From Enterobacter phage phiEap-3, in the sequence record KT321315.1: a stretch of 64,000 nucleotides of DNA; one strand, written 5' to 3'. Positions 6,466-59,289 of the stretch are shown in pieces. The notes beneath the pieces are model-generated. The model did not search any database and had not been told where the DNA came from. It was given only the letters and a program-made list of their open reading frames with translations. Every line of letters begins with the position of its first letter. The stretch's first letter is position 1. Made by a program: the position numbers and the translations under genes.

Positions 6466-6466
6466 A

Positions 6467-17324: not shown

Positions 17325-17365
17325 TCAAACGGCTATCTTCGGATAGCCTTATTTTTGGGGTGTCT

Positions 17366-42617: not shown

Positions 42618-42994
42618 CAGAATTCAACCTTTAATGTTTTTGCGATCCCGCGCAATTCAGCGGTAGTAATATCCGGAATGTTTGTTCCGTAGCTATTCCC
42701 AAATACTTTTTTAATCTTATCACACAAATCGCGGCGATACACCATTTCTTTGTATTCTTCTTCGCTACGATACAGTTGATAACCCATCCACCCCTCAGCC
42801 CATCCGGAATTGCGCTTGATTTTAATATTAGTACAACAATCAGACCCATCTTCCGGTCGGAAAGATGCATACAGGTACTGACGCGCAACTTTTTGTACGT
42901 AAAGGGTTTTGGGGTTGCGATTTTGTCGCTGGTCACTACGGATCCCAGCATCATACAACGTATCACCAACTTTCACATCACTTAAATCAATCAT
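42617..42994 (-). CDS. hypothetical protein (VKVGD motif)
   Basis: ORF coupled to the NTase gene. Confidence 0.4.
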   Translation of the reverse strand: MIDLSDVKVGDTLYDAGIRSDQRQNRNPKTLYVQKVARQYLYASFRPEDGSDCCTNIKIKRNSGWAEGWMGYQLYRSEEEYKEMVYRRDLCDKIKKVFGNSYGTNIPDITTAELRGIAKTLKVEF

Positions 42995-43218
42995 TTACGT
43001 CTCCAGCAATTAGTTTTTTCACAGTAATGAACGGGAACAGGCACACCCAACGTTTCTTTACTGCTTCTGTTGTATGTTATCACAACGAATCGGTTTTCGC
43101 CACCCCTAACACACTCCAGATCCAAAATCTCGCGGGTTCCCTTCGTGTTAATGTCTGCAACATAATATTCTTCGTTGTTGACAATCACTATATCCGACAT
43201 GATCAAGCGAGGTTTCAT
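42991..43218 (-). CDS. hypothetical protein
   Basis: ORF. Confidence 0.4.
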   Translation of the reverse strand: MKPRLIMSDIVIVNNEEYYVADINTKGTREILDLECVRGGENRFVVITYNRSSKETLGVPVPVHYCEKTNCWRRK

Positions 43219-43826
43219 GCAGCGTACACCTCTGATTCATCGATCCATTCCAGATCCTGATTGAGTGATTCAATCAGCTTTTTATCGCGTCTGGAAATAA
43301 CAACGGTAGAACCTTTTTCTGCCTTCACGATGATATCACCAGAAGAGGTGATGTATTCAACCACATAATCACGGCGAGGGCTTCCGAGTCTATCACCAAC
43401 TTTAACAGCACGTCTAACCGATTCATGAGATTTTTCGGTGAACACTAATTCATCACCTACGTGGGTAACAATACCATCAACAGCAGAACGAGAATTAACA
43501 TAAATTTTGCTAATCTCCGCCATGAAAACACTATCTCTCAGATATCGAGCAGCCACTTTATCTAAACACTGAGAAGATACTTTATCTCCGCCAGGATATA
43601 CTGAGATAATCATTACATGACCCTGAACACGGGCGGTTCCTACTTTATGCAGAATGTAAACCATTGAACCATCAGAATCTTTAGATACAAGGATCACGCT
43701 GAAAGATTCTTTGTGTTGCTTCTGAGTTTCTCCACAGGTAAAACTCACGTCCAGAAAATCACCAACTTTAACAGCACGGGGTTTTGCTACTTGTTCACGA
43801 GCACTAATAACAGGGATCATAATCAT
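43215..43826 (-). CDS. hypothetical protein with duplicated RAVKVGD-containing domains
   Basis: Internal repeat RAVKVGDFLDVSF / RAVKVGDRLGSPR. Confidence 0.45.
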   Translation of the reverse strand: MIMIPVISAREQVAKPRAVKVGDFLDVSFTCGETQKQHKESFSVILVSKDSDGSMVYILHKVGTARVQGHVMIISVYPGGDKVSSQCLDKVAARYLRDSVFMAEISKIYVNSRSAVDGIVTHVGDELVFTEKSHESVRRAVKVGDRLGSPRRDYVVEYITSSGDIIVKAEKGSTVVISRRDKKLIESLNQDLEWIDESEVYAA

Positions 43827-44092
43827 TTCCTCACAGTTTCAAATTCTTCATCAGATTTCCAATACACGTTAAAATTACGACAATCATGTTCGGCTGTCAA
43901 CGTATATTTTTCATTTGTTTTCTCATCGGTGATAACCATAGTTTCATTATCGATTGAGTTAACACCATAAACGAAAACATTCTCACCGCGTTTGTTTAAA
44001 AACGCATCACCCTTTTCAATCAACTGCCAACAGGCAACAGGCAACCCACCTGGACAAATCGGACGGGTAACAAGACAATAGGGATGTTTCAT
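43823..44092 (-). CDS. hypothetical Cys-rich protein
   Basis: Internal ATG after the cassette. Confidence 0.4.
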   Translation of the reverse strand: MKHPYCLVTRPICPGGLPVACWQLIEKGDAFLNKRGENVFVYGVNSIDNETMVITDEKTNEKYTLTAEHDCRNFNVYWKSDEEFETVRK

Positions 44093-44148
44093 AATAAGCC
44101 TCTTTTGTTTCTGTAGGCCCAATATAGCAAAAGCCCCTGACCTAAGTC
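44093..44148 (-). repeat. terminator-plus-promoter cassette copy l
   Basis: Minus strand reads CAAAGCCCTTGACTTAGGTCAGGGGCTTTTGCTATATTGGGCCTACAGAAACAAAAGAGGCTTATTATG. Confidence 0.55.
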
Positions 44149-44160
44149 AAGGGCTTTGTT

Positions 44161-45231
44161 TTAAATTCCGGTAAATGCTACGATGATTTGATAATGATCA
44201 TCGAAGAATAGATCCCGCATCGCGATCACTTCGTGCATCGGTAGCCAGAACGCGTCTGCTGCATCATCAGAGCCGCCCATAATACGAGGCAATGAACCAT
44301 CGTTATTAGGTTCGAGCTTGATATATTGTGCTACAGTCGGTTTTGAGAAGTACACCGAACGTTTCGGATGATCGAACAGCATCGAATTACGGATAGAACC
44401 ACGAATAACCTTTTCTGGTACTTTAATTCGTACTTCTTCCAGCAATTCACGGATCGCACAATCAAGGAACGTTTCGTTACCGTTTTTGTGTCCACCAGGA
44501 AGCGCTAACGCATCTTTACCAGGCGCAAACTTACGACGGATTACTAACACGTGGTTATTACATACGACCACTGAGTCAGCCGTGCAACAGTTCAGAGAAT
44601 CCGGATACGGATATTTTTTGAACTTGTCAATCTCTCGTTGCCAGTGTGCATCTTCATGGGACAAACGCTGGAATTCTTTTGTTTGTGTCCATTCATCGAT
44701 AAAGGAAACCGTAGTGCTAGGCGCATATTTTAACAAATCTTCGTCCCAGCCTTCATGGTGTTCCCAGATAATTTTGCGTAAATTGGTCGAGGACAGATCC
44801 TGATCTCCAACCTTCACAGGTTCAACCGGAATATGATTCCATCCGAATGCTTTAAGCCAGTAAGAATCTTTGTCTTTTTCGTATCCGACGATCGCAATTC
44901 GATCATTTCGAGTTTCATCGATTGCCATACGAACGCGGGATTTCCATTTTTCCTCGTTATAGAGGTAATCTGGAATGTGCGCGAATTTGATTCTGGCTGC
45001 ATCTTCAACATCAAGTTTGCAGATAGACCAGCGAGTGATCATTGCTTGACGCTGTTTAGCGGTCAATGGGTTTAATGTGTTCGGATATGCATAAGCAGAA
45101 CCGATCAGAATGTAAACCGTATTAGCAACAGCAAGGGCTTCCCTTACCATTTTCTCATGACCATAGTGAAAAGGTTGAAAACGTCCAATTACTACAGCTT
45201 TATCATATTTGTGTTTCATAACGTGCTCCAC
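44161..45231 (-). CDS. natV: bifunctional NMN adenylyltransferase / Nudix ADP-ribose pyrophosphatase (NadM-Nudix, NatV-like)
   Basis: N-terminal GRFQPFHYGH (HxGH nucleotidyltransferase motif); C-terminal Nudix box GGHKNGNETFLDCAIRELLEEV. Confidence 0.8.
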   Translation of the reverse strand: MEHVMKHKYDKAVVIGRFQPFHYGHEKMVREALAVANTVYILIGSAYAYPNTLNPLTAKQRQAMITRWSICKLDVEDAARIKFAHIPDYLYNEEKWKSRVRMAIDETRNDRIAIVGYEKDKDSYWLKAFGWNHIPVEPVKVGDQDLSSTNLRKIIWEHHEGWDEDLLKYAPSTTVSFIDEWTQTKEFQRLSHEDAHWQREIDKFKKYPYPDSLNCCTADSVVVCNNHVLVIRRKFAPGKDALALPGGHKNGNETFLDCAIRELLEEVRIKVPEKVIRGSIRNSMLFDHPKRSVYFSKPTVAQYIKLEPNNDGSLPRIMGGSDDAADAFWLPMHEVIAMRDLFFDDHYQIIVAFTGI

Positions 45232-45244
45232 GTTTAAAGGTTAA

Positions 45245-45343
45245 TCATAAAACAGACGCAATTATCAACACACCAAACAATCCACCAATGAAACCAAAGA
45301 ATAGTGAAATGAGTATAGTCAGTACGATCTGTTTTATGTTCAT
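45245..45343 (-). CDS. possible 32-aa single-TM micro-protein
   Basis: MNIKQIVLTILISLFFGFIGGLFGVLIIASVL; coordinates approximate. Confidence 0.25.
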   Translation of the reverse strand: MNIKQIVLTILISLFFGFIGGLFGVLIIASVL

Positions 45344-45395
45344 TATAGTATTCTCGTTTTAGATGTCAAGCCCCCAAAGAGGGGGCTTTAAAACA

Positions 45396-46322
45396 TTATT
45401 TACGAGAATCGAAAATCACTTTACCAGCATAATCCGAACCCATTACAGTTTGAGGTACGCCACCTTTATAGCGGGTAGAGTAGTTCATCTGTACATCCAG
45501 TTCTTTCCAGCGGATCATTTCCGGCGTAATGGTGCGTTGCAGGGCGGCGTTGGCTTCTGCTTCTTTCTTCGCTGCATACAGACGGGCATCAGCATCACGT
45601 TCGTTAGCGATTGCAGCGTTTTCACGCGCCTGACGATCGGCTTCCGCTTGTTTTACTGCTTGTAGTGAAGTTTGTTCTACTTTTTGCAGTTCAGCTTTAG
45701 CAGCGTTAACCTGTTCTTCGCGGATCTTCGTGTTAGTTACCTGTTCCATGATAACTTCCGGCAGGGTGATATCCTGCAAGAATACCTGTTTCACAGTGTA
45801 ACCGTAAGGCCGCGCATAATCTTCTACTTCCTGCTGAATCGCAATTTGCAGTTGGTTTTGGATCTTCGCATCAAACAGGTCTTGCGCTTTCGGTACGGAT
45901 TTACCAAATTCGCGAACAGTGGAAAGCAGTTTTTCAGTTACATACTTATCCAGTGCCTGATCCTGATTACCCGCGTTGATACGGTTGATCGGTGCTTTGC
46001 TACCGTCGAATTGCAGCATTACGGTCATATCCACAGTGGATTTAAATTTATCCTGGGACGGAACCTGTAATTTGTCGAACTTCATCGCGATGTCTTTGGT
46101 GCTGAACGTATCAAACGTTGCCAGCGGGTTTACAATGTGGAAACCGGGTAGTACGGGTTTCGGTGATACTTTACCCATGAAGGTTTCAGTTTTAACCGTA
46201 CCGTCTTGCACAATGGTATACATGTTAGGCACTAACCACAGTGCTGCAACTACGCCCAGAGCGATCAGAGAGGTTTTCTTCGGGTTGTTCACGATAGTGT
46301 TTAAGTTCATCATAATTTCCAT
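45396..46322 (-). CDS. SPFH/Band-7 (prohibitin/HflKC-like) domain membrane protein
   Basis: N-terminal TM segment, SPFH core, then an Ala/Glu/Gln-rich coiled-coil tail. Confidence 0.7.
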   Translation of the reverse strand: MEIMMNLNTIVNNPKKTSLIALGVVAALWLVPNMYTIVQDGTVKTETFMGKVSPKPVLPGFHIVNPLATFDTFSTKDIAMKFDKLQVPSQDKFKSTVDMTVMLQFDGSKAPINRINAGNQDQALDKYVTEKLLSTVREFGKSVPKAQDLFDAKIQNQLQIAIQQEVEDYARPYGYTVKQVFLQDITLPEVIMEQVTNTKIREEQVNAAKAELQKVEQTSLQAVKQAEADRQARENAAIANERDADARLYAAKKEAEANAALQRTITPEMIRWKELDVQMNYSTRYKGGVPQTVMGSDYAGKVIFDSRK

Positions 46323-46382
46323 AAGTTGTTGTTCAATTCGATAGTTATTCTATCATCACATTTCACGCTGTCAAACTATTTT

Positions 46383-46805
46383 TTAAGAAAGTTTTGTCAG
46401 CTTGTAGATTGTTTGATAGCACAAGCCCTTAATCTCGTCCAGGATGTTCTTCAAAGAACTATCTACTGATTCGTAGATCTCGTTTGCTTCGTTGGCTATT
46501 TTACGGAGATACGCTACCGTGTCAAGCATATTTTCGGTTTTTAGCACAGGTTTGTATCTTCCCGTGATTCCTATGTGGATTTCGGTGAATTTATCAACCA
46601 AATCCTGCATATCTTCGTAAAAACCCTCATATGCTTTATGTTGTGAGTAGGAACCTGTTGCAAAATGTGCGCTATGCATATACGTAACGGACATAAGGCA
46701 CATGCCAATAAAGGCATCTATCTTGCTTGAGTTCTCAGATTCTGTAATTTGTTTAAATGATTGCATGATGATCCCTTTATGAACGATGGATACTTGCAAA
46801 CTCAT
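46383..46805 (-). CDS. hypothetical protein
   Basis: ORF. Confidence 0.45.
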   Translation of the reverse strand: MSLQVSIVHKGIIMQSFKQITESENSSKIDAFIGMCLMSVTYMHSAHFATGSYSQHKAYEGFYEDMQDLVDKFTEIHIGITGRYKPVLKTENMLDTVAYLRKIANEANEIYESVDSSLKNILDEIKGLCYQTIYKLTKLS

Positions 46806-47079
46806 ACGCGACCCTAATTCCTAGCTTTGCGCATTCGGATTCAGATCGGCATTGTTTTTGGTGCCATTTTCGTTCCATGTAGTTGTAGAATAGTTCGCTT
46901 GTATTTACGCTGGGAGGGATCGTTGTGATGTATACTTGAAGGGCCGCATTAATATAATCGTCAAATTCTTTCTGAACCGGACGGTCGGCGGCGTGTGTTG
47001 TGGGTGTCATCATCAACAATCCGAACAGCACAGCCATTGATATGCGTTTAATGTTCATAACAATTACTCTTTTACTCAT
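46777..47079 (-). CDS. secreted small protein (signal peptide)
   Basis: MAVLFGLLMMTPTTHA signal sequence. Confidence 0.45.
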   Translation of the reverse strand: MSKRVIVMNIKRISMAVLFGLLMMTPTTHAADRPVQKEFDDYINAALQVYITTIPPSVNTSELFYNYMERKWHQKQCRSESECAKLGIRVAYEFASIHRS

Positions 47080-47164
47080 AGACCCACTATAGGTCTACTC
47101 CTGTATATATTTATAGCAAAAACGAGGCCGAAGCCTCGTTATAATATTTTTGCTGTAAAGTCAA

Positions 47165-47557
47165 TCAAGTAATGTCATACCAACACAAACTTCTTTCGAA
47201 AGCGCGTATTTTGTTCACGTTTTCTACGTTTTCATCCCAACCGATCACGCCAGCTTTCATACGTTTCAGTTCCTGACGTAAACGGGTACGTACTTTTGAA
47301 TCAATTTTCTTTACTGCAATAGAAAGCATTGCATTCAGATCGCCATGAGCTTTGTTACCGTCGCGACACAGATTATTATCAAATCGAATATATGCACATC
47401 CTGATTTGTGTTTCCAGTTGGTTGAGTACCAACGCAACCCATCCGGATCAATACCATGTTGAGCATAATAACGAGAATACTCTTTTACTTCTTCGATCTT
47501 TTCGTTAGATGAACGGTCACGAAGAGGGTTGTATTTCTTACGGTAAGTGCGACTCAT
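47165..47557 (-). CDS. hypothetical basic protein
   Basis: ORF. Confidence 0.45.
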   Translation of the reverse strand: MSRTYRKKYNPLRDRSSNEKIEEVKEYSRYYAQHGIDPDGLRWYSTNWKHKSGCAYIRFDNNLCRDGNKAHGDLNAMLSIAVKKIDSKVRTRLRQELKRMKAGVIGWDENVENVNKIRAFERSLCWYDIT

Positions 47558-47573
47558 AATGATCTCCTTTTGT

Positions 47574-48182
47574 TTATGCTTCCACTGTATCAGGGTTGTT
47601 CTTTAGTTGCAAGTAATGTTTTCGACAAAGTGAAACATATTTGTCTTCGGCCCCGATCTCAATCTGGTCGCCATTAGCAACAAATTTGCCATTTGCATCA
47701 ATACGGGCTACGGTAGTTGCTTTCTTTCCACAATGACAAACCCCCCGCAACTCCCTGATCTCATCAGCAAGCGCCAGCAACATATAAGAACCTTCAAACA
47801 AGTTCAACTGAAAATCGGTTCTTAGTCCATATGTCATTACGGGTATATCTAATTCGTCAACAACCCGACACAGATCCATGACATTTTTCCTGGAAAGGAA
47901 TTGCGCTTCATCCACAAACACGCAAGAAACCAGTTTCTCGCTATCACCGTAAAAATGATTGTTGTGAACATCATAATACAAGTCCATATCAGGCGTGATC
48001 ATGGTGCATGTTGCTTCCAACCCAATACGCGAAGAGATACTCTGTTTACCTTCTCGCGTATCAATTGCTGGTTTGTACATCAGGATCCGCATACCGCGTT
48101 CCTGGTAGTTGTATGCATCAGTGAGTAAACGAGCACTCTTGCCAGCATTCATTGATGCATAATGAAAATATAGTTTAGCCAT
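47574..48182 (-). CDS. tk: Thymidine kinase
   Basis: YASMNAGKS P-loop, zinc-ribbon CHCGKKA...C; similar to T4 Tk. Confidence 0.9.
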   Translation of the reverse strand: MAKLYFHYASMNAGKSARLLTDAYNYQERGMRILMYKPAIDTREGKQSISSRIGLEATCTMITPDMDLYYDVHNNHFYGDSEKLVSCVFVDEAQFLSRKNVMDLCRVVDELDIPVMTYGLRTDFQLNLFEGSYMLLALADEIRELRGVCHCGKKATTVARIDANGKFVANGDQIEIGAEDKYVSLCRKHYLQLKNNPDTVEA

Positions 48183-48372
48183 TTATCCTCTCAACAAAAT
48201 CTGGGGTATTTTGGAATTTCCCTTCCCCTTCATGGTTTTTGCATGTTTTATTTGAACAGTAGATCCACCAATCCCACTCATCATAAGGGGGTTTGGTAAT
48301 GTTCATTACACAAATTAAAGGGAAATGACAATCCCGACAGCGAACATTTTCTATAATGTTTGCGTTAGCCAT
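48175..48372 (-). CDS. hypothetical zinc-ribbon protein
   Basis: CRDCHF...CSNKTC. Confidence 0.4.
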   Translation of the reverse strand: MANANIIENVRCRDCHFPLICVMNITKPPYDEWDWWIYCSNKTCKNHEGEGKFQNTPDFVERING

Positions 48373-48652
48373 GCGTATAACCGCCCATTTCGTTATCTTG
48401 TGCTTGATGAATATCAAGATACCACATATTGATTTTGCTTTTCAGTTCGTCCATTTCTTTATCAAGCCCACTGTCAACAAGACAGAGAATGTCAACCACC
48501 GTTTTACGCTGGGTGATGTTGATTTTGTTCGCTTTCATCGCTTGCGCCAATGCATTGCAGGTTTTAACCAGTGCGGCGCGTTGTCCTTTGATTACGGCGA
48601 TCCGTTTGTTCGCTTTCTTGATCGCCCGACCTGCTTTGATAGGATCCATCAT
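48365..48652 (-). CDS. hypothetical basic protein
   Basis: ORF. Confidence 0.4.
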   Translation of the reverse strand: MMDPIKAGRAIKKANKRIAVIKGQRAALVKTCNALAQAMKANKINITQRKTVVDILCLVDSGLDKEMDELKSKINMWYLDIHQAQDNEMGGYTHG

Positions 48653-48654
48653 GA

Positions 48655-49128
48655 TTAATTCGCCTTACGAGGATCGAAATGAACGACAATGATCGGGTAA
48701 TCACCAGTCACCTCATTAATAATGCGCTTAATGAGTTCCCAGTCGCCCCCAGCAAGGCCAGCACCGATTAAAGGTGTGATGATAGGCTTTCCAGTTTTAA
48801 CGGCGTCAGCAAGCCCTACAGCCTGTTTAAACGCATTACCTATTGCATCATAATCGACACGCGGCCCAGGTGTCCAGAAATCATATTGAGTGTATGCATT
48901 GAAAACAATGTTGCCTTTTTCGCCAATGTAAACAGAACAAGTTCCGAGCTTATCACGGGAACCTTTTAACGTATTGGCATCAACTTGAAATGCACCAGGA
49001 ATACGATCGCGGATTTCGCGAGCAATACCAGCGCCCATATTGCAATAGCAGTTGCATCCGTGGATCAAATGGCCTTCACCATTCAGATACATATTGACAG
49101 CATTACCTTTCACTTCTTTAATGATCAT
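48655..49128 (-). CDS. macro-domain (ADP-ribose binding/hydrolase-like) protein
   Basis: IHGCNCYCNMGAGIA aligns with the macro IVNAANxxLxGGGGVxxAI block, and PLIGAGLAGG with the ISTGVYGYP block; start at ATG 49128 (the track start is a TTG). Confidence 0.55.
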   Translation of the reverse strand: MIIKEVKGNAVNMYLNGEGHLIHGCNCYCNMGAGIAREIRDRIPGAFQVDANTLKGSRDKLGTCSVYIGEKGNIVFNAYTQYDFWTPGPRVDYDAIGNAFKQAVGLADAVKTGKPIITPLIGAGLAGGDWELIKRIINEVTGDYPIIVVHFDPRKAN

Positions 49129-49425
49129 TTTTATTTTTCCGATATAGTAGGGCCACAACAAGGCCCATCAAAATCACAAGGATCCACAATACAGTGAATT
49201 GAACCCCTACGCTCATTTTCTCGCTTTCCGTTCGCGGCGGCGGTCTTCTTGATGACACATATACATTACACCAGTAAAGACCACAAGGCCAATAACAAAC
49301 CCGATGAAATTACACATAGTCATCATCCCCGCAATAATAACAAGGCCCAGTGCTCTCATGCTTACCAGCATTGTACGCCAAGAACACCACAACCGCCGCC
49401 ATAATAATAAAAATCCAGATAGCCA

Positions 49426-49749
49426 TTAGTAAAGCCCTATGCCAGCATTAAATTCGTCAACCAAATAAGTACGGAACTTTTCGCACCGTTCCTTATTTGG
49501 CGCTTGTTTGCATAGATTCATCATTGGTTCAGACTGCAAAAACTCTTTTTGTTTCAGCAACTTACCGCGTTTATACAGGTGAGCATTTTCCTCTCCCCAC
49601 ATATAAGCAACATCTAACTGTTCTGCGATCACTTGCTTACATACTGCGACATCTTTAATATCACGATTGTTGCATAACTCATCCAGGCGAGCATCACCCG
49701 CGTGAGCAAATCCAGCAACCAGAGTTAAAAGCAGTGCTAACTTTTTCAT
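49426..49749 (-). CDS. secreted small protein (signal peptide)
   Basis: MKKLALLLTLVAGFAHA signal sequence. Confidence 0.5.
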   Translation of the reverse strand: MKKLALLLTLVAGFAHAGDARLDELCNNRDIKDVAVCKQVIAEQLDVAYMWGEENAHLYKRGKLLKQKEFLQSEPMMNLCKQAPNKERCEKFRTYLVDEFNAGIGLY

Positions 49750-49758
49750 GATGATTCC

Positions 49759-50349
49759 TTATTCATCCTCTTCGATAGGGGTATAATAATGCGCATTGCA
49801 GATATACGCAAGAACTTTTTTCAGAGACATATCCGAGAATGTCGGATCCTGATTTCGTCTCATCCCACTACCAGTTTCAACAGCCCAACGTTTGTTAGCT
49901 GGATTGTATGTCAGCCAGTAACAATCCCATTCAGACAGAGTATGTTCGAACAGATCGAAACGCTTACGCCCATTTGCTTGCGGCCTAACAAAAGGTTCAA
50001 CCATTTCTAAAGCGGTTAAAACTCGATTAAGGTTTGAACCGTCTTCATCCATCGCGATCCGCAAACAGTACTGGTTAATGTCCGGATCCATACCATCGAT
50101 ACCCAGGCCGATAGATTCGAAAAATTGTGTCGCCGCGTGATAAGACACACTAGAAGAACGATATTCCAACATCACGGGGATCTTTTCCCCATCCTTGACG
50201 TTGTTAATGATATCCTGATCGATAAGTTCAATCAGGTCTCTTTTATCCTTGATCAAGGTAGAAATTTCTTCTTGCAGAGGGGCTATCTGTGCATGAAGTT
50301 CTTTGATCCGTTGATCAATTACGGTTACTTCGAAAGCTAAATTTCTCAT
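49759..50349 (-). CDS. hypothetical protein
   Basis: ORF starting at an ATGA overlap. Confidence 0.45.
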   Translation of the reverse strand: MRNLAFEVTVIDQRIKELHAQIAPLQEEISTLIKDKRDLIELIDQDIINNVKDGEKIPVMLEYRSSSVSYHAATQFFESIGLGIDGMDPDINQYCLRIAMDEDGSNLNRVLTALEMVEPFVRPQANGRKRFDLFEHTLSEWDCYWLTYNPANKRWAVETGSGMRRNQDPTFSDMSLKKVLAYICNAHYYTPIEEDE

Positions 50350-50492
50350 TGTACCCATTCCCCGTTTTTGTCAATGTACATGATCCAATCAGCAACCGCC
50401 CAATGGGAAGTATTGCCTTTCGGAGTCGCTACGATGTAGGAACCAGCTTTAAACAGTACGCGTTTAGTTTCGTTCAGGATCAGGTCGCTCAT
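50346..50492 (-). CDS. hypothetical 48-aa protein
   Basis: SD GAGAGGAATACATT ATG; the same leader as the gene at 34167. Confidence 0.35.
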   Translation of the reverse strand: MSDLILNETKRVLFKAGSYIVATPKGNTSHWAVADWIMYIDKNGEWVQ

Positions 50493-50506
50493 AATGTATT
50501 CCTCTC

Positions 50507-50558
50507 AATTAGATGCATCTATAATAAAAAAGCCCCAGACCGAAGTCAAGGGCTTTTT
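50507..50558 (-). repeat. terminator-plus-promoter cassette copy m
   Basis: Minus strand reads AAAAAGCCCTTGACTTCGGTCTGGGGCTTTTTTATTATAGATGCATCTAATTGAGAGGAATACATTATG. Confidence 0.55.
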
Positions 50559-50559
50559 G

Positions 50560-51201
50560 TCAAATGATTTGTTTTTCTTCTAACAGCTTCGCGGTTGTAT
50601 TAACCATACGAGCATAATCACGGGCTTCTTTCTTTGTATACTTGAAACCAGCGTTATAGCTCGCCAGCGCCTTTTTCAAGTCGCCTTTGTGGTAATCAAG
50701 CCAGTACTCCAGTTCATAGATCGCATACTTCGATCCACCTTGAAGAGTTTCGAGCTTTTTGATTACTACGCGTTTAGGATATGACTTATCCATTCGTGCG
50801 CTGGCGCTCCTTGCGGTAACTTGCCAGCATCCATAAGCGTGATGGCCTTTTTTACCTTTACCGACATTCTCACATGCGCGAGACTCGATCCAGGCAATAG
50901 CCGCTAAATGATAGCCTAAACGTTTAGCCTTATCTTTTTCTACAGGTTTTGCAGTCTTCAAATCATAGTTGTGTCCAACTCGATAAGCATACTCCAGAAC
51001 CTCTTTCTGCTTCGGTGTGATGTTATCCAAATCCTTGATGTAGGATGGAGAATTTTTGTTTGCCGGAGGCTTTACAGTAGCCTTTTGTAAAGGCAATTGA
51101 TGAGTAGGCAAATCCGCAATGAAATCCCCTAGCGGATCCGTCGCAGCGTTGCCAGAAAAAGAGCACAAGAAAATGCTGGCAGCAATAATAATTTTCTTCA
51201 T
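50560..51201 (-). CDS. soluble lytic transglycosylase-like (SLT domain) protein with signal peptide
   Basis: IAWIESR...GCWQV...YNAG SLT motifs; N-terminal signal peptide from ATG 51201. Confidence 0.7.
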   Translation of the reverse strand: MKKIIIAASIFLCSFSGNAATDPLGDFIADLPTHQLPLQKATVKPPANKNSPSYIKDLDNITPKQKEVLEYAYRVGHNYDLKTAKPVEKDKAKRLGYHLAAIAWIESRACENVGKGKKGHHAYGCWQVTARSASARMDKSYPKRVVIKKLETLQGGSKYAIYELEYWLDYHKGDLKKALASYNAGFKYTKKEARDYARMVNTTAKLLEEKQII

Positions 51202-51265
51202 TTTAATACCTATGTTGCAAAAAGAGGGGCAATAATACACCCCACTTTATATTTATGCAACTATT

Positions 51266-51820
51266 TTAGATAGTTTTCGCGTCACGTAGTTTATCAGCGA
51301 TAAACTCAGCAATGTTATAATTTGAAATAGCCTTGTTAGGATCGTATAGTGCAGTGATTTCATCTAACGATACCATAACGGCATGTTTAAAGTAGACACT
51401 CCAGCTAGTAGTAAGGATCTCGCTGTTGTCAAACCCACAGTTAGGGCTGAACAACGCGCGGTATTTGTACCCACTGTATTTCGTCAGACGATTCGTGCTG
51501 TGCGCATCACTGGTGATCAGAAAAGTTCCCTGGTGGGTTTCCACAACGAAAAAGTATCCGAGGCGTTCTTTGTTGTCCAGCATCTTTTCAAACTTGCGAT
51601 CGGTTTCTTCGCGAACAATACGAGAAGTCAGCATTTCCAACACTTTATCATATTCAGGCCAATCATTCTCGATCACGATCGCATCAAATGGTTTCTTACC
51701 ATTAATCCCGCGCCCGATTTCGATTTTCATGCAAATTTCGTTGAACGTTTTTAAATCTTCTGGCGTCAGTTCTTTAAGATCGCTCAATTTTGCTACATAA
51801 TAACGTTTTTCTAGTTTCAT
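51266..51820 (-). CDS. hypothetical protein
   Basis: ORF. Confidence 0.45.
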   Translation of the reverse strand: MKLEKRYYVAKLSDLKELTPEDLKTFNEICMKIEIGRGINGKKPFDAIVIENDWPEYDKVLEMLTSRIVREETDRKFEKMLDNKERLGYFFVVETHQGTFLITSDAHSTNRLTKYSGYKYRALFSPNCGFDNSEILTTSWSVYFKHAVMVSLDEITALYDPNKAISNYNIAEFIADKLRDAKTI

Positions 51821-51832
51821 TTTACGGAAACC

Positions 51833-52036
51833 TCAATTCAAAAATAATTTCACAGAGTTACCACATTTAGGACATGTGATAAATTTTTTCACGACATAAT
51901 CAGCAGCAGAGAAAAATCCATTGTAAATCGATTCTCTCTTTTGCTGTATATCAGATAATTCGTATTCTAACCCACTTTTACAGCAACTGCAAACAGTAAT
52001 TAGTTTTTGGCTATGGATGACAGTAATCATATACAC
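51833..52036 (-). CDS. hypothetical zinc-ribbon protein
   Basis: CSCCKSG...CPKCGN. Confidence 0.4.
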   Translation of the reverse strand: MYMITVIHSQKLITVCSCCKSGLEYELSDIQQKRESIYNGFFSAADYVVKKFITCPKCGNSVKLFLN

Positions 52037-52040
52037 CTCA

Positions 52041-52062
52041 CAAAAAGGGGGCTTTCGCCCCC
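52041..52062 (-). terminator. hairpin AAAAGGGGGCTTTCGCCCCCAT
   Basis: GC stem-loop downstream of phoH. Confidence 0.45.
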
Positions 52063-52066
52063 ATCA

Positions 52067-53410
52067 TTAGAAATTGTCTTCGACAAACGCCGCGAGACGG
52101 GAACGATACACTGTATCAAGAATGATATGGCTTGAGTGTTCGTATTCTTTCAGCTTTTCAACAGCCCATACAAACCCGTTGTTTACGGCAGTGTTTCGAG
52201 GGTTATCGATCTGCTTAATGTTCCCGCATAGTATCAGAAGTGTGTTCTCTCCGCAACGAGAAATGATAGATTTAATTTCGTGGTTGCTAAGGTTTTGACA
52301 TTCATCAACAATTAGCACAGAACCTTTGCCCGGATCCGGATGTCCGATACTGCGACCACGGAAGTAATACAGGCTAGGGAATTGCACCACCCCTTTTTCA
52401 ATCAAACCTTCAATGTATTTTTCAGATTCCGGATTATCCTTAAACAGAATATTCAGGCTAGTAATACAAGGTTCGATAGAAGGCCGGAGTTTTTCGCCCA
52501 ATGTACCAGGAAGGAAGCCAATTTCACTTGATAACGGGCTATCTGACTTCACATACATCAAGTTAGCGTAATGTCCACTATTAACCAGGTGCATAGCACC
52601 GGAAACAGCAAGCATTGTTTTACCAGAACCAGCGCCGCCCATAATGGTAGCAACATCGATTTCATTGCTCATAATGGATTCAACGAAAGCCGCTTGCAGA
52701 GAATCACGGGGCTGAATAGCTTTCATGAGTTTGCGTTTCATAGCCTGTTCGTGCTTAACAGGTAAGACATTCAAGCAAATCTCATCAGCAGTCACCACAC
52801 GCCCGACTAACTCACCATTTGAGGTAATGTACTGGTTAGGATAAAAATCTTCGTCAGGAAGCGAACTGTAAGTGATTTGGGCTACATTATCCGTATATCC
52901 CAACACTTCTACGGTATCCCAGAAATCAGGGATCTCTACATAACCGGAATACAACACATCGCTATCTTTTAACGTATCGTCGCCAGTATACTGTTCTACC
53001 TTACACCCACGGGACATTGCGATCAGCAACATCATAATATCGCGAGTAACTAAGGTTGCATCCTGTTGCATACAAGTTTCAATGATTCGTTCGTCTTGCT
53101 TGTCAAGAGCAAACGTTTTGTTTCCGACATAATCAACCACTTTAAGGGTGATAGTGTCAGACAGTGCTGGGTTTGTCAGGTTTAAAGGAATACCTGATTT
53201 CGTAATCGCATCATATGACTGACCGAAAATAACTTTTGACAGAAGCCGGATCGCCAATCGTGCTTCGTGCGCTGTTCGTTCTTTCGTTTTCAGGTGATCT
53301 AATTCACCCATAGTAGCAGAGGTAATAATGATTTCTGTACCAGGTTGAGTGAATGAATAGATTGAATAGGGGTTCGAGACTAAAACGTTAGTGTCTAAAA
53401 CATATTTCAT
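52067..53410 (-). CDS. phoH: PIN-domain / PhoH-like ATPase fusion protein
   Basis: N-terminal PIN (MKYVLDTNVL), C-terminal PhoH with Walker A GGAGSGKT. Confidence 0.8.
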   Translation of the reverse strand: MKYVLDTNVLVSNPYSIYSFTQPGTEIIITSATMGELDHLKTKERTAHEARLAIRLLSKVIFGQSYDAITKSGIPLNLTNPALSDTITLKVVDYVGNKTFALDKQDERIIETCMQQDATLVTRDIMMLLIAMSRGCKVEQYTGDDTLKDSDVLYSGYVEIPDFWDTVEVLGYTDNVAQITYSSLPDEDFYPNQYITSNGELVGRVVTADEICLNVLPVKHEQAMKRKLMKAIQPRDSLQAAFVESIMSNEIDVATIMGGAGSGKTMLAVSGAMHLVNSGHYANLMYVKSDSPLSSEIGFLPGTLGEKLRPSIEPCITSLNILFKDNPESEKYIEGLIEKGVVQFPSLYYFRGRSIGHPDPGKGSVLIVDECQNLSNHEIKSIISRCGENTLLILCGNIKQIDNPRNTAVNNGFVWAVEKLKEYEHSSHIILDTVYRSRLAAFVEDNF

Positions 53411-56543: not shown

Positions 56544-56717
56544 TTAAATTGGTTTAATGGTTTTCAGGTGTAGTTTAGCATAAGAAGAACCAAATGAGTT
56601 ACCATTATGATCGAACTTATGTTCTTCACTCTTCCAGTATTTCCCCGATTTCATCAAGGGTATACGCTTCTTACCTGCTGTTATCGTTTCAACCATTCCG
56701 GTATGTGTGAAAATCAT
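56544..56717 (-). CDS. hypothetical protein
   Basis: Internal ATG, ATGA-coupled. Confidence 0.35.
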   Translation of the reverse strand: MIFTHTGMVETITAGKKRIPLMKSGKYWKSEEHKFDHNGNSFGSSYAKLHLKTIKPI

Positions 56718-57061
56718 ACAATACCCTCTTCTTCGAGCACTTCCCAGATCAGGCGATCCAGGTGCATCAGGTTCCACATAACAGAGTCATAAGAACCCAG
56801 TGAGCGGGAGTAAATAACTCCCCATGAACGATACGCCTTTTGGAATTCCCCTGCACTATCTACATCATACGGCATATCATCACCGGAAGCAATCAAAAGT
56901 TTTAGGATCATCAGACTGTTCAGAAGTTTTGAACTAGCGTCTTGTGCTTGTACTTTTGCACAATAATTTTCAATAATCGCTTTTGCCTTTGGTTCGGTGA
57001 TGCGTCCATTTTTGCATCGCTCTTTGTACACATACATAAGTTCATCGATTATTTCTTGCAT
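56714..57061 (-). CDS. hypothetical protein
   Basis: ORF in the rSAM operon. Confidence 0.45.
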   Translation of the reverse strand: MQEIIDELMYVYKERCKNGRITEPKAKAIIENYCAKVQAQDASSKLLNSLMILKLLIASGDDMPYDVDSAGEFQKAYRSWGVIYSRSLGSYDSVMWNLMHLDRLIWEVLEEEGIV

Positions 57062-57395
57062 ACATTCTTTCCTTCTGTTCTGTGCTCATGCCATACAACT
57101 GAGAGCGTATACGGTCTTGTATACGACGCGTTTCGTTTTGCATCAGTTGGTTTGAAAGAATCAAATCGACTACCGCGCCGCGAACTTTCCATAGATAATC
57201 AATCATCGCCATATCTTCATCAGTATGGAAACCTTTCGCATCACATTCATAGATAATGCTTTGTCTTTCCGCCATTGCCATTTCTGCTGTCGCCGGAGTA
57301 GCCAGAGAATATTCATACTTCTCGATCAACGATTCCAGTGTACGCGGTTTTACTGGAATGTCAATAGCTATTGGACGAATCATATGCACCCCCAA
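57042..57395 (-). CDS. hypothetical protein
   Basis: ORF in the rSAM operon. Confidence 0.45.
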   Translation of the reverse strand: MGVHMIRPIAIDIPVKPRTLESLIEKYEYSLATPATAEMAMAERQSIIYECDAKGFHTDEDMAMIDYLWKVRGAVVDLILSNQLMQNETRRIQDRIRSQLYGMSTEQKERMYARNNR

Positions 57396-57676
57396 TTCTC
57401 GCCATCTGCTTTAATCTGTAAATTAGCCAGGAATGAAAACATAATATCACAGTTGCTTTCGATTAGATAGCGATATTTTAATACCGTGCTCACTTCTTCC
57501 GGTTCTACCGTAGTAACCTTAATGTCTTTAGCACAAAGGTCATAATCGTTACAGTACCCGTCAATATCCATAAGCGTTTTGTTTTCATCTGGATATAATT
57601 CCAGCAGGTATGCGTCTTCATCAGTTACCAGCGCAACTATCCGGTTGCGCCTTGTGTTATAGGTTAAGATCTTCAT
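57380..57676 (-). CDS. hypothetical Cys-containing protein, ATGA-coupled to the rSAM gene
   Basis: Five Cys; its start overlaps the rSAM stop. Confidence 0.45.
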   Translation of the reverse strand: MKILTYNTRRNRIVALVTDEDAYLLELYPDENKTLMDIDGYCNDYDLCAKDIKVTTVEPEEVSTVLKYRYLIESNCDIMFSFLANLQIKADGENWGCI

Positions 57677-58818
57677 TTCAATTCCACCGCGTACACATCC
57701 AATTCAGGGGCTTTGTGTACGCGCATATCTTTACCACATACAGCATAAGCCGGACAGTTACGGCAACCGTTATGATCCTTGTTACCAATCAATTCCTGAC
57801 GGAATTTCTTAGTTTTCGGATGTTCCCAGATATCTTTGATAAAGTCACTGGCTTCCAGGACGTTAAGCCCTTCTGACCATCCACCCTCGACCCAACCTTC
57901 GGTAAAGGAACAAGGGAAGAATTCACCCTTCTCGTTGATGTACGAGCTAAACATAGTAGCTTCGCAATCTTCCGCATACTGTTTGTACTGTTCAAAATTT
58001 TCATGCCCTTCCATAGCCTCTACAAAGGCCGGAGCGGAACAAGAATCAAAACCGAACCCTACACCAGATTCAAGGCAATACTCTACCAGAGCTTTATACT
58101 GCTCGCGTGTAACGGTATCCCAGTTCTTCCCACGGCCTTTTTGTTTCAGACCCAGGAATACGATCGCGTTAACTTGTTTCAAACGCGGATCATTCTTCAC
58201 AGCATCAACCACGTTAAACGCATCATCATAGGTTTTAGAGCTAACCATGAAATGAAGGTTGATTTGCTGTTGTCCGGCTTCCGCCAGATTAGCCACTGAA
58301 TTAAATGCGACATCGAATCCAGCATGTTTGTATACTGATACCGCAACAGCCCCAGCAACAGCCGCTAAACGCGCTGCAACGTCTTTTGATACATCAGCAA
58401 TGGTAAGGTTAGGCACAATGCCTTTAGAACGCGCATAGGCCATCATATCAAACATATCAGGGTTTGTTTGTCCCTGTGCATCAGCACCGAGGGCGCATTG
58501 TGTTAACCAGGGCATTTTATCAATGATAGATTTGAATGTATCAAGATCCATATTGAAGCCGTTAGGGTTATTAGACTTGTAGCAGAAACCGCAAAGTTTA
58601 CCAGCGGGGCCATTGCATTTAGTTGTGATCTCAATATCGAGAATTTCAGGGAATGGGGCATAGGTAGGATCAGTTTCGAACGATGTTCCCCAGCGAGCAA
58701 ACTCACCAGTTTTAACGTTGAAATTGTAGTTATACCACTTAGAGCGAGCGTAACGGATATCACCATCTTGATAGATGAACAGGGTAGGAGCTTTCAGAAC
58801 AGTTTGTGCGTTATTCAT
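57673..58818 (-). CDS. radical-SAM-like enzyme with a C-terminal SPASM/twitch-like Cys cluster (non-canonical CX7CX2C)
   Basis: IEITTKCNGPAGKLCGFCY equals the canonical TxxCNxxCxYC with a 4-aa insert; C-terminal CSAP...CEAT...CSF...CRNCPAYAVCG; start taken at M40 after the upstream stop. Confidence 0.5.
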   Translation of the reverse strand: MNNAQTVLKAPTLFIYQDGDIRYARSKWYNYNFNVKTGEFARWGTSFETDPTYAPFPEILDIEITTKCNGPAGKLCGFCYKSNNPNGFNMDLDTFKSIIDKMPWLTQCALGADAQGQTNPDMFDMMAYARSKGIVPNLTIADVSKDVAARLAAVAGAVAVSVYKHAGFDVAFNSVANLAEAGQQQINLHFMVSSKTYDDAFNVVDAVKNDPRLKQVNAIVFLGLKQKGRGKNWDTVTREQYKALVEYCLESGVGFGFDSCSAPAFVEAMEGHENFEQYKQYAEDCEATMFSSYINEKGEFFPCSFTEGWVEGGWSEGLNVLEASDFIKDIWEHPKTKKFRQELIGNKDHNGCRNCPAYAVCGKDMRVHKAPELDVYAVELK

Positions 58819-58828
58819 AATATAATTC

Positions 58829-59044
58829 TCAAAATCTAACATGGGATTGGAAGACAGCGCGAGCGAGACTTTCATTATCAAACGGTATTGATTGGTGTTG
58901 CCCTTTGCTATCAATGTTAACGCGCCAAAATTCACTAGAACAATTTTCAGTGGAGTAGTTCAACAGCGTTACCGTTTTATTCTTTTCCAAAAATACTCGT
59001 TTGTCAATCTCTGTTTTGATTACGTGTTCCATCATTTTACCCAC
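58829..59044 (-). CDS. hypothetical protein immediately upstream of the rSAM gene
   Basis: ORF; its start may be an internal Met near 59032. Confidence 0.4.
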   Translation of the reverse strand: MGKMMEHVIKTEIDKRVFLEKNKTVTLLNYSTENCSSEFWRVNIDSKGQHQSIPFDNESLARAVFQSHVRF

Positions 59045-59289
59045 CGTTGTTTGCGTTCGTCAGCCAGTTCTTTTTTGTACACCTTGATGTATTCACCGTT
59101 CAAGGCACGGAGATTTGAAAATACACGATTGAAAAGATTTTTCTTTTCTTTGTATGCCGGAGACATACGGATCGATTCAATAGTCATACCCATTTCATTT
59201 TTAGGATACGCTCTTAACTCTGCGCCGATCTCATCGATCCATTTTTGGTACAGATCACGCTTTTCTTTGTACTGTTCAAAAGTCAACAT
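59032..59289 (-). CDS. hypothetical protein
   Basis: ORF. Confidence 0.45.
   Translation of the reverse strand: MLTFEQYKEKRDLYQKWIDEIGAELRAYPKNEMGMTIESIRMSPAYKEKKNLFNRVFSNLRALNGEYIKVYKKELADERKQRWVK

What the first reader, a model, noticed from the sequence alone, without database searches (positions are those of the whole stretch)
56544..59289. Phage-encoded radical-SAM/SPASM-like enzyme in a tight operon with small Cys-containing ORFs (possible peptide- or protein-modifying system)
The protein at 57673..58818 has IEITTKCNGPAGKLCGFCY, which is the canonical radical-SAM TxxCNxxCxYC with a 4-residue GPAG insertion. This gives a CX7CX2C spacing that is not the textbook CX3CX2C. A glycine-rich stretch (GADAQGQTNP) sits where the GGE SAM-binding motif is expected. 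The C-terminal cluster CSAP..CEAT..CSF..CRNCPAYAVC resembles SPASM/twitch auxiliary-cluster domains, and such maturases usually act on peptides or proteins. The gene is ATGA-coupled to a 98-aa five-Cys protein and is followed by three more coupled small ORFs. A 71-aa ORF lies immediately upstream. No precedent for such an enzyme in T4-type phages is known to the author.
Basis: partly seen in the sequence, partly recalled or inferred. Interest (0 to 1): 0.72.

Follow-up and report, generated by a model that had tools for sequence, protein, structure and literature searches.

The report
Phage radical-SAM enzyme with tagged partner proteins
The gene is a real radical-SAM/SPASM-type enzyme that is already annotated in related phages, but its conserved partners are two distant genes carrying an invariant serine-rich N-terminal tag, not the small ORFs next to it, and this points to an undescribed enzyme-plus-tagged-protein system shared by many large phages and some bacteria.

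Summary

The adjacent small ORFs occur only in the close clade (p98 in 57 of about 172 genomes) and never next to distant homologs.

In 50 of 64 non-redundant homolog loci, the enzyme is instead flanked on the same strand by 1-9 paralogous genes. Their products all begin MK-x-R-x-GFVSNSSSSSF and are then hypervariable. The window has two such genes (38392..38907 and 34539..35009, minus strand). Searches starting from the tag recover the enzyme within a few kb in 45/120 viral and 49/93 genomic chunks. Bacteria such as Veillonella and Acetatifactor carry a translationally coupled tag-protein/enzyme pair.

Best reading: a tag-directed protein maturase acting on many hypervariable proteins. The chemistry is unknown, and no library or paper searched describes the system.

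The parts
57673..58818 (-). Radical-SAM / SPASM-derived enzyme, 381 aa (PHROG 7293)
58582..58617 (-). Radical-SAM cluster triad C68-X7-C76-X2-C79
   Evidence: All three Cys are invariant in 29 homologs. The loop length varies across the family: X3, X5-8 and X11-15. X3 is the bacterial form.
58471..58488 (-). GADAQG, the candidate equivalent of the GGE SAM-binding motif
   Evidence: G111 is invariant and D113 is >=90% conserved. The assignment rests on position only.
57736..58041 (-). Auxiliary Fe-S domain: C260, C285-X12-G-X4-C303, C352-X2-C355-X5-C361
   Evidence: Only C260, C285, C303 and C355 are invariant. CX9-15GX4C is kept in 111 of 126 homologs. The full CX2CX5CX3C motif is present in 18 bacterial homologs and in 0 of 95 viral ones.
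58654..58818 (-). N-terminal beta-strand domain (aa 1-55), a family hallmark (..YNYNFN..TG.F.RWG..)
   Evidence: It is conserved in alignment A1 and in the Veillonella and Acetatifactor homologs. The model shows strands only. A docking role for the tag is inferred, not tested.
38392..38907 (-). Tag protein 1, 171 aa (PHROG 7397); tag MKIRSGFVSNSSSSSF at 38860..38907
   Evidence: It occurs in 173 phage records. In the AF2 model, residues 1-10 are disordered and strand 13-20 lies in a small sheet.
34539..35009 (-). Tag protein 2, 156 aa; tag MKIRSGFVSNSSSSSF at 34962..35009
   Evidence: It occurs in 172 phage records. RB16 and an RB43-like metagenomic contig carry the same two copies; the RB43 chunk retrieved shows only the 156-aa type.
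57380..57676 (-). 98-aa, 4-Cys ORF, ATGA-coupled to the enzyme (PHROG 17765). Tested as a partner and rejected.
   Evidence: It has 4 Cys. It appears in 1 of 8 close-clade loci, in no distant locus, and in only 57 phage records.
58829..59035 (-). 68-aa ORF upstream of the enzyme (PHROG 8584). Tested as a partner and rejected.
   Evidence: It is restricted to the close clade and occurs in 149 phage records.

Best explanation
57673..58818(-) encodes an active-looking radical-SAM enzyme. Its C-terminal domain is a SPASM domain reduced to one fully liganded auxiliary cluster, which makes it twitch-like.

The enzyme belongs to a large, mostly phage-borne family. The only widely conserved genomic partner of that family is a set of proteins that begin with the near-invariant 16-residue tag M-K-x-R-x-G-F-V-S-N-S-S-S-S-S-F and are hypervariable afterwards. 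The window phage has two such proteins, of 171 and 156 aa, in the same minus-strand early/middle gene block.

Most likely mechanism (inferred): the enzyme recognises the exposed N-terminal tag, much as a leader peptide is recognised. It reductively cleaves SAM, abstracts a hydrogen atom from a tag residue (a Ser/Asn C-alpha or C-beta, or a residue next to Phe7 or Phe16), and installs one post-translational modification. One enzyme would thereby mature many unrelated acidic phage proteins.

Candidate chemistries, which the data cannot rank:
- a C-C or C-O cross-link to Phe, of the streptide or triceptide type (F7-V8-S9 fits an aromatic-X-X motif);
- Ser oxidation to formylglycine, as by anSME;
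- epimerisation.

Shown: the enzyme class, and the genomic coupling in both directions. Inferred: that the tag is the substrate, and the chemistry.
For: Enzyme:
- SPASM Pfam hit above threshold, and an N-terminal match to a radical-SAM maturase core.
- Invariant C68/C76/C79 plus C260/C285/C303/C355.
- AF2 pLDDT 92.3.
- Foldseek best hit is SuiB bound to SuiA, E 4.6e-10.
- Bacterial homologs pass PF04055 and carry the complete SPASM Cys motifs.

Coupling:
- One neighbour family occurs in 63 of 87 enzyme-centred loci, with 215 genes, all on the enzyme's strand.
- After dereplication, 50 of 64 enzyme clusters have 1-9 tag genes within 5 kb.
- No other neighbour family is shared beyond the close clade.
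- In the reverse direction, scans for the tag alone recover an enzyme homolog in the same chunk in 45 of 120 viral chunks (mean 7.9 kb) and 49 of 93 genomic chunks (<=8 kb).
- In Veillonella, the tag-protein stop overlaps the enzyme start, and the same cassette recurs in Acetatifactor and Lachnobacterium; Vibrio harveyi has a tag-variant gene directly upstream of the enzyme.
- Several enzyme contigs with no tag gene within 5 kb carry tag genes elsewhere on the contig.
- In the RB43-type clade, the enzyme (172 records), p171 (173) and p156 (172) are equally universal.

Tag:
- Positions 1-16 are near-invariant across 358 unique proteins, and conservation collapses from residue 19.
- All six Ser codons are used, so selection acts on the protein.
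- Residues 1-10 are disordered in the p171 model.
- The tag variant tracks the enzyme clade: T14 is 100% with full-SPASM enzymes and 8% with truncated ones.
Against: - There is no direct evidence that the enzyme touches the tag. A co-fold could not be run.
- In this window the genes are 19-24 kb apart, not in one operon.
- 14 of 64 enzyme clusters have no strict-tag gene within 5 kb. 51 of 109 tag-bearing viral contigs have no enzyme known to me. Only chunks could be read, so both figures are bounds.
- No PqqD-like recognition element is detectable.
- The window protein gets no PF04055 hit and scores just below the TIGR04085 cut-off.
- In the p171 model the Ser run leads into a beta-strand of the fold. 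Part of the motif could therefore be structural rather than a modification site.
Confidence: 0.55

Rival explanations
1. One reading: the enzyme modifies the small proteins encoded directly beside it, namely the 98-aa Cys-containing ORF and the 68-71-aa upstream ORF.
For: The ORFs are translationally coupled to the enzyme through an ATGA overlap and a 10-nt gap. p98 has four Cys.
Against: These ORFs occur only in the close clade and in none of about 75 distant enzyme loci. p98 is in 57 phage records against 172 for the enzyme, and 31 of those are below 60% identity. ATGA coupling is general in this gene block.
Confidence: 0.04
2. The tag proteins are adaptors or partner subunits, not substrates. 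The conserved tag docks them onto the enzyme, and their variable bodies recruit other targets, such as host proteins, for radical modification.
For: The coupling evidence is the same as for the best explanation. One enzyme is paired with many hypervariable acidic bodies. The enzyme has a conserved N-terminal beta domain that could accept a strand.
Against: No known radical-SAM/SPASM enzyme works this way. The precursor-then-maturase gene order with overlapping stop and start in bacteria is typical of substrate-enzyme pairs.
Confidence: 0.15
3. The enzyme acts on a small molecule, nucleotide or DNA, as viperin, BlsE, DesII or a DNA-modification enzyme does. The tag proteins would be linked only indirectly, for example as users of the product.
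Against: The closest structures are peptide maturases, and SuiB aligns over 306 residues. The Slopekvirus papers do not implicate this gene, and the restriction-resistance phenotype differs between phages that both carry it. There is no PADLOC or viperin hit for the window protein. Small-molecule chemistry does not explain the tight pairing with a tagged protein family.
Confidence: 0.12
4. The co-localisation has no functional meaning. Enzyme and tag genes would simply share the same accessory, hyperplastic regions of large phage genomes.
For: Both lie among fast-evolving ORFans. In the window clade they are well separated.
Against: The pairing recurs in phages whose enzymes are only 25-50% identical. 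It also recurs in bacterial chromosomes beside housekeeping genes, with overlapping coding regions. No other neighbour family travels with the enzyme. The tag variant co-varies with the enzyme clade.
Confidence: 0.06
5. The enzyme is a degenerate, inactive radical-SAM relic, because the cluster loop is CX7CX2C and the second auxiliary cluster is lost.
For: The window protein gets no PF04055 hit. The fourth Cys of CX2CX5CX3C is missing.
Against: All seven key Cys are invariant across 46-88%-identical homologs. The protein is 86-99% conserved in the clade while its neighbours drift. Loop insertions in this triad are tolerated in known active enzymes, for example QueE from B. multivorans with CX14CX2C (general knowledge). 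Single-auxiliary-cluster 'twitch' enzymes are active.
Confidence: 0.03

Closest known systems
SuiB/StrB (streptide) and related SPASM/twitch peptide maturases (SkfB, CteB, PqqE, ChlB)
   Different: Sequence identity is only 13-16%, and every curated family cut-off is missed. No PqqD-like recognition domain is present. The partners here are 90-690-aa proteins with an N-terminal tag, not short peptides. The phage enzymes keep only four invariant auxiliary Cys.
FxSxx-COOH / FxsB system (Haft & Basu 2011; Kaur et al. 2020, PMC7159879) and triceptide cyclophane-forming radical-SAM enzymes
   Same: In both, a rapidly diverging protein carries a short conserved terminal motif containing F-x-S and is coupled to a radical-SAM/SPASM gene. 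The tag's invariant F7-V8-S9 fits the aromatic-X-X pattern that cyclophane-forming enzymes use (general knowledge).
   Different: The FxSxx motif sits at the extreme C-terminus. That system is actinobacterial and comes with a metallopeptidase and vWA/AP-ATPase partners. Here the motif is at the N-terminus, no peptidase is conserved, and no FxsB model appeared among the hits listed for the enzyme.
Anaerobic sulfatase-maturating enzyme (anSME/AtsB)
   Different: anSME substrates carry (C/S)-x-(P/A)-x-R, which the tag lacks. anSME has two auxiliary clusters. The tag proteins have no sulfatase fold.
Leader-guided multi-substrate maturation (e.g. ProcM with about 30 prochlorosin precursors)
   Same: One enzyme serves many paralogous precursors that share a conserved N-terminal segment and have hypervariable remainders, often encoded in arrays (general knowledge). 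The arrays here hold up to 9 copies.
   Different: The enzyme class is different (a lanthipeptide synthetase). Those products are short peptides, not 100-300-aa acidic proteins. This system is viral.
T4 internal proteins with a capsid-targeting sequence
   Same: It is a T4-type phage precedent for a short conserved N-terminal signal fused to hypervariable bodies encoded in plastic loci (general knowledge).
   Different: The tag sequence is unrelated. Tag-enzyme pairs also sit in bacterial chromosomes away from virion genes. No link to the prohead protease was found.

Membership tests
Radical SAM superfamily (PF04055) | Three-Cys motif binding the SAM-cleaving [4Fe-4S] cluster (canonical CX3CX2C) | tested here: met
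   C68/C76/C79 are invariant. The spacing is CX7CX2C here. It is CX3CX2C in P0116 and in bacterial homologs, and the loop ranges from X3 to X15 across 126 homologs.
Radical SAM superfamily (PF04055) | Profile match to the radical-SAM core | tested here: inconclusive
   The window protein has no PF04055 hit. Residues 60-135 match the core of TIGR04317 at E 1.9e-7. The Veillonella homolog scores 49 bits against a cut-off of 29.5.
Radical SAM superfamily (PF04055) | Partial TIM-barrel fold | tested here: met
Radical SAM superfamily (PF04055) | Reductive cleavage of SAM to the 5'-deoxyadenosyl radical | not testable with these tools
   This needs purified, reconstituted protein.
SPASM domain (PF13186 / TIGR04085) | Profile match above the curated cut-off | tested here: met
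   PF13186 scores 26.4 bits against 21.5. TIGR04085 scores 25.2 against 27, just below the cut-off.
SPASM domain (PF13186 / TIGR04085) | Seven-Cys pattern CX9-15GX4C ... CX2CX5CX3C ... C, ligating two auxiliary clusters | tested here: not met
   C285-X12-G-X4-C303 is present. The second block is only C352-X2-C355-X5-C361, with no fourth Cys. Only C355 of that block is invariant. None of 95 viral homologs has the full block, while 18 bacterial homologs do.
Twitch subclass (single auxiliary cluster, e.g. BtrN, SkfB, MoaA) | Truncated SPASM with ligands for one auxiliary cluster | tested here: inconclusive
RiPP maturase with RiPP recognition element | PqqD-like winged-helix recognition domain | tested here: not met
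   There is no PqqD or RRE Pfam or NCBIfam hit. In the model the N-terminal 55 residues form strands only.
Anaerobic sulfatase-maturating enzymes | Partner protein with a (C/S)-x-(P/A)-x-R motif in a sulfatase fold | tested here: not met
   The tag is MKxRxGFVSNSSSSSF. 148 tag proteins give no sulfatase or other Pfam domain.
FxsB / FxSxx-COOH system | Conserved F-x-S-x-x at the extreme C-terminus of the partner, with a zincin peptidase | tested here: not met
   The motif is at residues 1-16, and matches start at residue 1 in nearly all of the 150 listed hits out of 5432. The C-termini are not conserved. No peptidase is conserved in the loci.
Prokaryotic viperins / known defence radical-SAM enzymes | PADLOC model match | tested here: not met
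   The window enzyme has no PADLOC hit. The bacterial homolog matches only the generic core of the pVip models, over residues 45-143.

The most novel reading that the evidence does not exclude
A previously unrecognised, widespread two-component system. A radical-SAM maturase installs one radical post-translational modification on a universal 16-residue N-terminal tag. That tag is carried by thousands of otherwise unrelated, acidic, hypervariable proteins of large phages, up to 9 per locus. A single-copy ancestral version sits in bacterial chromosomes, in one case beside an Avs-type defence system. The tag would then be a new kind of 'maturation handle' for virus-host conflict effectors.
Probability: 0.5. 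Interest if true: 0.85.

Novelty: new variant of a known kind. Interest (0 to 1): 0.7.

Why it matters
Radical-SAM/SPASM maturases are known almost only from bacterial peptide natural products and a few cofactor or enzyme maturations. Here one enzyme family appears dedicated to a tag shared by at least 5,400 distinct protein clusters. These clusters have no Pfam domain and no structural relatives, and they are encoded in arrays in T4-like and jumbo phages.

If the tag is modified, this would:
- give a function to a gene that is conserved in every RB43/Slopekvirus-type therapeutic Klebsiella phage;
- define a large block of viral 'dark matter' as one substrate class;
- possibly reveal new radical chemistry on Ser/Asn/Phe.

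It is directly testable with two genes from this window.

Tried and rejected
- **Adjacent ORFs as partners.** BLAST of nine window neighbours against 86 homolog loci hit only the close clade. Rejected.
- **Any other conserved neighbour.** All-against-all clustering of 3,743 ORFs found none beyond the tag family.
- **PDB sequence searches.** The enzyme, its profile and bacterial gene D gave nothing useful.
- **DNA-modification role.** Slopekvirus papers report an unknown DNA modification but never mention this gene.
- **Defence literature.** The Ophion radical-SAM system is unrelated, being rSAM+PHP+PRTase.
- **Literature search for the tag string.** It returned no papers.
- **Conserved C-terminal motif across tag proteins.** None exists overall. 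Only the p171 subfamily shares ..SD.DG..EHG..F....H...S.H.
- **Promoter motifs.** No T4-type late promoter lies near either gene set. Beyond that the result was uninformative.
- **Distant cultured phages.** I could not list the one Vibrio phage and one other distant cultured phage that carry the enzyme.
Full report
**Source of the window.** The window comes from a T4-like Klebsiella phage of the Slopekvirus / RB43-RB16 group. Region 56200-59600 is 97-98% identical to phages KpCCP1, vB_KpnM_M1, Matisse and PMBT1. From about 64 kb down to 33 kb the genes run on the minus strand. They form a block of mostly small, translationally coupled ORFs mixed with accessory enzymes: Dcm, a PIN-PhoH protein, Tk and an NMNAT-Nudix protein.

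**Observation check.**
- The ORF at 57673..58818(-) is 381 aa and carries IEITTKCNGPAGKLCGFCY, giving C68-X7-C76-X2-C79.
- GADAQGQTNP lies at residues 111-120.
- C-terminal cysteines lie at 260, 285, 303, 352, 355 and 361.
- The enzyme stop overlaps the start of the 98-aa ORF as ATGA. The next three ORFs are coupled by ATGA, a 20-nt overlap and ATGA. The two upstream ORFs are also ATGA-coupled, and the nearer one ends 10 nt before the enzyme start.

Two statements are wrong. The 98-aa protein has four cysteines, not five. The enzyme also has ample precedent. tblastn finds it in 172 of 50,697 phage records, nearly all of them RB43/RB16/Slopekvirus/Karamvirus-like phages of Klebsiella, Enterobacter, Cronobacter, Citrobacter and Escherichia. 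Depositors often name it 'radical SAM protein', 'SPASM domain-containing protein' or 'Fe-S oxidoreductase'. It is PHROG 7293, of unknown function.

**What the enzyme is.**
- Pfam SPASM (PF13186) matches residues 285-356 at 26.4 bits, above the 21.5 cut-off. TIGR04085 scores 25.2, just under its cut-off of 27.
- Residues 60-135 match the radical-SAM core of TIGR04317 (E 1.9e-7). PF04055 itself does not hit.
- A search of 5.8 billion proteins returns 2,667 homologs. Many lie on 100-460-kb phage-like contigs.
- In 29 homologs of 46-88% identity, the invariant cysteines are C68, C76, C79, C260, C285, C303 and C355. C352 and C361 are not conserved.
- An AlphaFold2 model built on that alignment has mean pLDDT 92.3.
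- Its best Foldseek match is SuiB bound to its precursor peptide (E 4.6e-10).

The enzyme call stands.

The unusual CX7CX2C spacing is a lineage-specific loop insertion. Among 126 full-length homologs in fetched loci, the loop is X7 in 49, X3 in 43 and X6 in 12, and it is X5, X8 or X11-X15 in the remaining 22. The canonical X3 dominates the bacterial versions.

The first SPASM block (C-X12-G-X4-C) is retained. The second block (CX2CX5CX3C) is complete only in 18 bacterial homologs and in none of 95 viral ones. The phage enzymes therefore look like SPASM reduced to one fully liganded auxiliary cluster, which is twitch-like.

**Are the adjacent small ORFs the partners? No.** I fetched 86 loci around homologs, 80 from IMG/VR and 6 from assemblies. 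I then searched them with the window's neighbours.
- The neighbours appear only in the eight loci of the close clade. They appear in none of the roughly 75 loci whose enzymes are 40-70% identical.
- p98 is found in just one of the eight close-clade loci, at 47% identity.
- Across cultured phages, p98 occurs in 57 records, p71 in 149 and the enzyme in 172.

These are fast-evolving clade-specific ORFans. ATGA coupling is the norm in this gene block and says nothing specific.

**What does travel with the enzyme.** All-against-all clustering of 3,743 ORFs from these loci gave exactly one widely shared neighbour family.
- It comprises 215 genes in 63 of 87 loci, all on the enzyme's strand and mostly immediately downstream, in tandem arrays.
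- After dereplicating the enzymes at 90% identity, 50 of 64 clusters have 1-9 such genes within 5 kb, with a mean of 2.7.
- The products are 90-270 aa or longer. They share only their first 16-18 residues, M-K-x-R-x-G-F-V-S-N-S-S-S-S-S-F-[IVC]-[IV].
- In 358 unique proteins, positions 1-16 are near-invariant and conservation collapses from position 19.
- The serines use all six codons (AGT 846, TCA 427, AGC 336, TCT 244, TCC 107, TCG 93), so selection acts on the peptide and not the DNA.
- The bodies are acidic (E 11.2%, D 10.3%) and have no common C-terminus.
- 148 diverse members align at 6% mean column identity. None has a credible Pfam domain. 99 of them touch PHROG 7397, of unknown function, and most are unrelated to the p171 subfamily beyond the tag.

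**The window has two such genes.** Both lie on the enzyme's strand:
- 38392..38907, 171 aa, MKIRSGFVSNSSSSSFIVRF..., PHROG 7397;
- 34539..35009, 156 aa, MKIRSGFVSNSSSSSFIIGI....

They flank a 738-aa vWA protein. They occur in 173 and 172 phage records, the same set as the enzyme. RB16 and an RB43-like metagenomic contig carry the same two copies in the same arrangement; the RB43 chunk I retrieved shows only the 156-aa type.

**Reverse test.**
- 45 of the 120 chunks (mean 7.9 kb) also encode an enzyme homolog. Some of these are only 25-27% identical to the window enzyme.
- 58 of the 109 contigs have an enzyme known from either search.
- Several enzyme loci that lacked a tag gene within 5 kb have tag genes elsewhere on the same contig, for example the contigs of L071, L078 and L083.
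- The same scan of one genome per GTDB species gave 93 chunks of at most 8 kb. 49 of them encode an enzyme homolog.
- A profile of the p171 family finds 5,432 cluster representatives at E<=1e-3 among 1.84 billion proteins. Nearly all of the 150 listed matches start at residue 1.

The background frequency of the enzyme is a few hundred contigs among 2.9 million. The two-way association is therefore far beyond chance.

**Bacterial version.** Veillonella parvula, Acetatifactor muris DSM 23669, Lachnobacterium bovis and related Firmicutes carry a conserved four-gene cassette:
- A, 136-142 aa;
- B, 137 aa, starting MKIRNGFVTNSSSTSF...;
- C, a radical-SAM/SPASM enzyme of 338-347 aa;
- D, 302-332 aa.

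In Veillonella the B stop overlaps the C start. The Veillonella C has canonical CX3CX2C, PF04055 at 49 bits, SPASM at 28.4 bits and the full seven-Cys SPASM pattern. Verrucomicrobial and other loci keep only the B-C core. A Vibrio harveyi contig has MKLRAGHVSNSSSSSF... directly upstream of a 69%-identical enzyme.

In V. parvula the cassette sits among ordinary-looking chromosomal genes, of which two gave Pfam hits (tRNA_edit, ABM). In A. muris it abuts an Avs1-like MBL plus protease-STAND pair, a defence-island context.

C resembles MftC, WgkB, PqqE and GeoRSP maturases, but it scores far below every curated family cut-off. A, B and D match nothing in Pfam, NCBIfam or PADLOC.

The tag variant tracks the enzyme clade. 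With full-SPASM enzymes, T14 is 100% and T9 is 70%, with about one tag gene per locus. With truncated enzymes, S9 is 100% and S14 is 86%, with at least two tag genes per locus.

**Interpretation.** Two things are shown: the enzyme class, and a strong, two-way, phylogenetically deep genomic coupling between this enzyme family and tag-bearing proteins. The rest is inferred. I infer that the invariant, exposed N-terminal tag is the recognition and modification site. One enzyme would then mature many hypervariable proteins. This is the logic of leader-guided peptide maturases, applied to full-size proteins.

The chemistry cannot be decided. Candidates are a cross-link involving Phe7 or Phe16 (F-V-S fits the aromatic-X-X motif of cyclophane-forming radical-SAM enzymes), Ser oxidation as by anSME, or epimerisation.

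The nearest described analogue in logic is the actinobacterial FxSxx-COOH/FxsB system, which pairs a diverging protein bearing a conserved terminal F-x-S motif with a radical-SAM/SPASM enzyme (PMC7159879). That system differs in three ways. Its motif is C-terminal, it includes a peptidase, and its enzyme family does not match.

**Rivals.** The tag proteins could be adaptors rather than substrates. The enzyme could have a small-molecule or DNA substrate. The co-localisation could be meaningless. The evidence for and against each is given in the Rival explanations section, and none explains the pairing as simply.

**Literature.**
- Full-text search found no paper containing the tag string.
- The only paper holding both 'radical SAM' and 'RB43' is a Vibrio phage genome description that I did not open.
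- The Slopekvirus papers on an unexplained DNA modification do not mention this gene.
- The recently described radical-SAM defence system Ophion has a different architecture.

**Verdict.** The gene as flagged is an already-annotated member of the radical-SAM/SPASM kind. The proposed operon partners are rejected. Following the homologs uncovers a conserved enzyme-plus-tagged-protein system that none of the libraries or papers I searched describes. It is a new variant of the maturase-substrate theme, with unknown chemistry and biology, and it can be tested directly with three genes from this window.

Noticed in passing
window 35848..38064 (-): A 738-aa protein with an N-terminal von Willebrand A domain (VWA_2 E 1.5e-6; PHROG 2426, unknown function) lies exactly between the two tag-protein genes. 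No MoxR/CobS-type ATPase was seen among the larger ORFs nearby. Whether it relates to the tag proteins is unknown.
   Followed up: partly
L207 (Acetatifactor muris NZ_JANJZD010000002) 1061..7997; L237 (Veillonella parvula) 5009..7757: Bacteria carry a conserved four-gene cassette A-B(tag)-C(rSAM/SPASM)-D. A and D match nothing in Pfam, NCBIfam or PADLOC. In A. muris the cassette is adjacent to an Avs1-like MBL plus protease-STAND pair, so it is a candidate defence-island component.
   Followed up: partly
window 34539..35009 (-): The 156-aa tag protein weakly matches PHROG 132 'head-tail adaptor' (E 6.5e-9). Some GenBank records (Roth41, phi1_146054, Olmo) therefore label it 'head-tail adaptor'. 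Given its position in an early/middle accessory block, this is probably a mis-annotation.
   Followed up: no
L300 (Klebsiella phage Matisse KT001918) 17137..17913: A different Matisse gene is annotated 'radical SAM protein', while its note describes a SAM-binding DNA methyltransferase domain. This looks like a naming error in the record.
   Followed up: no
window 56714..57061 (-): The 115-aa ORF two genes downstream of the enzyme is a full-length DUF7238 (E 2.6e-49). It is the only adjacent small ORF with a Pfam family.
   Followed up: no
window 40200..53410 (-): The accessory genes between the enzyme and the tag genes are a Dcm-type C5 methylase (40200..41111), an RlaP-like nucleotidyltransferase (41610..42617), an NMN adenylyltransferase-Nudix fusion (44161..45231), a Band 7/SPFH protein (45396..46322), thymidine kinase (47574..48182), an SLT-domain protein (50560..51240) and a PIN-PhoH fusion (52067..53410).
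   Followed up: no
window about 33000-34000: The GC-skew sign and the coding strand switch here, from plus-strand genes up to about 32.7 kb to minus-strand genes from about 33.2 kb. This marks a divergent transcription boundary.
   Followed up: no
L001 and L301 (Vibrio harveyi JBNGUC010000020): The Vibrio-type enzyme/tag pair sits near SIR2, DUF2913, YkuD, DsbB and ARPP-1/ARPP-2 genes on a 97-kb contig. This may be a mobile element or a conflict island rather than a typical phage.
   Followed up: no
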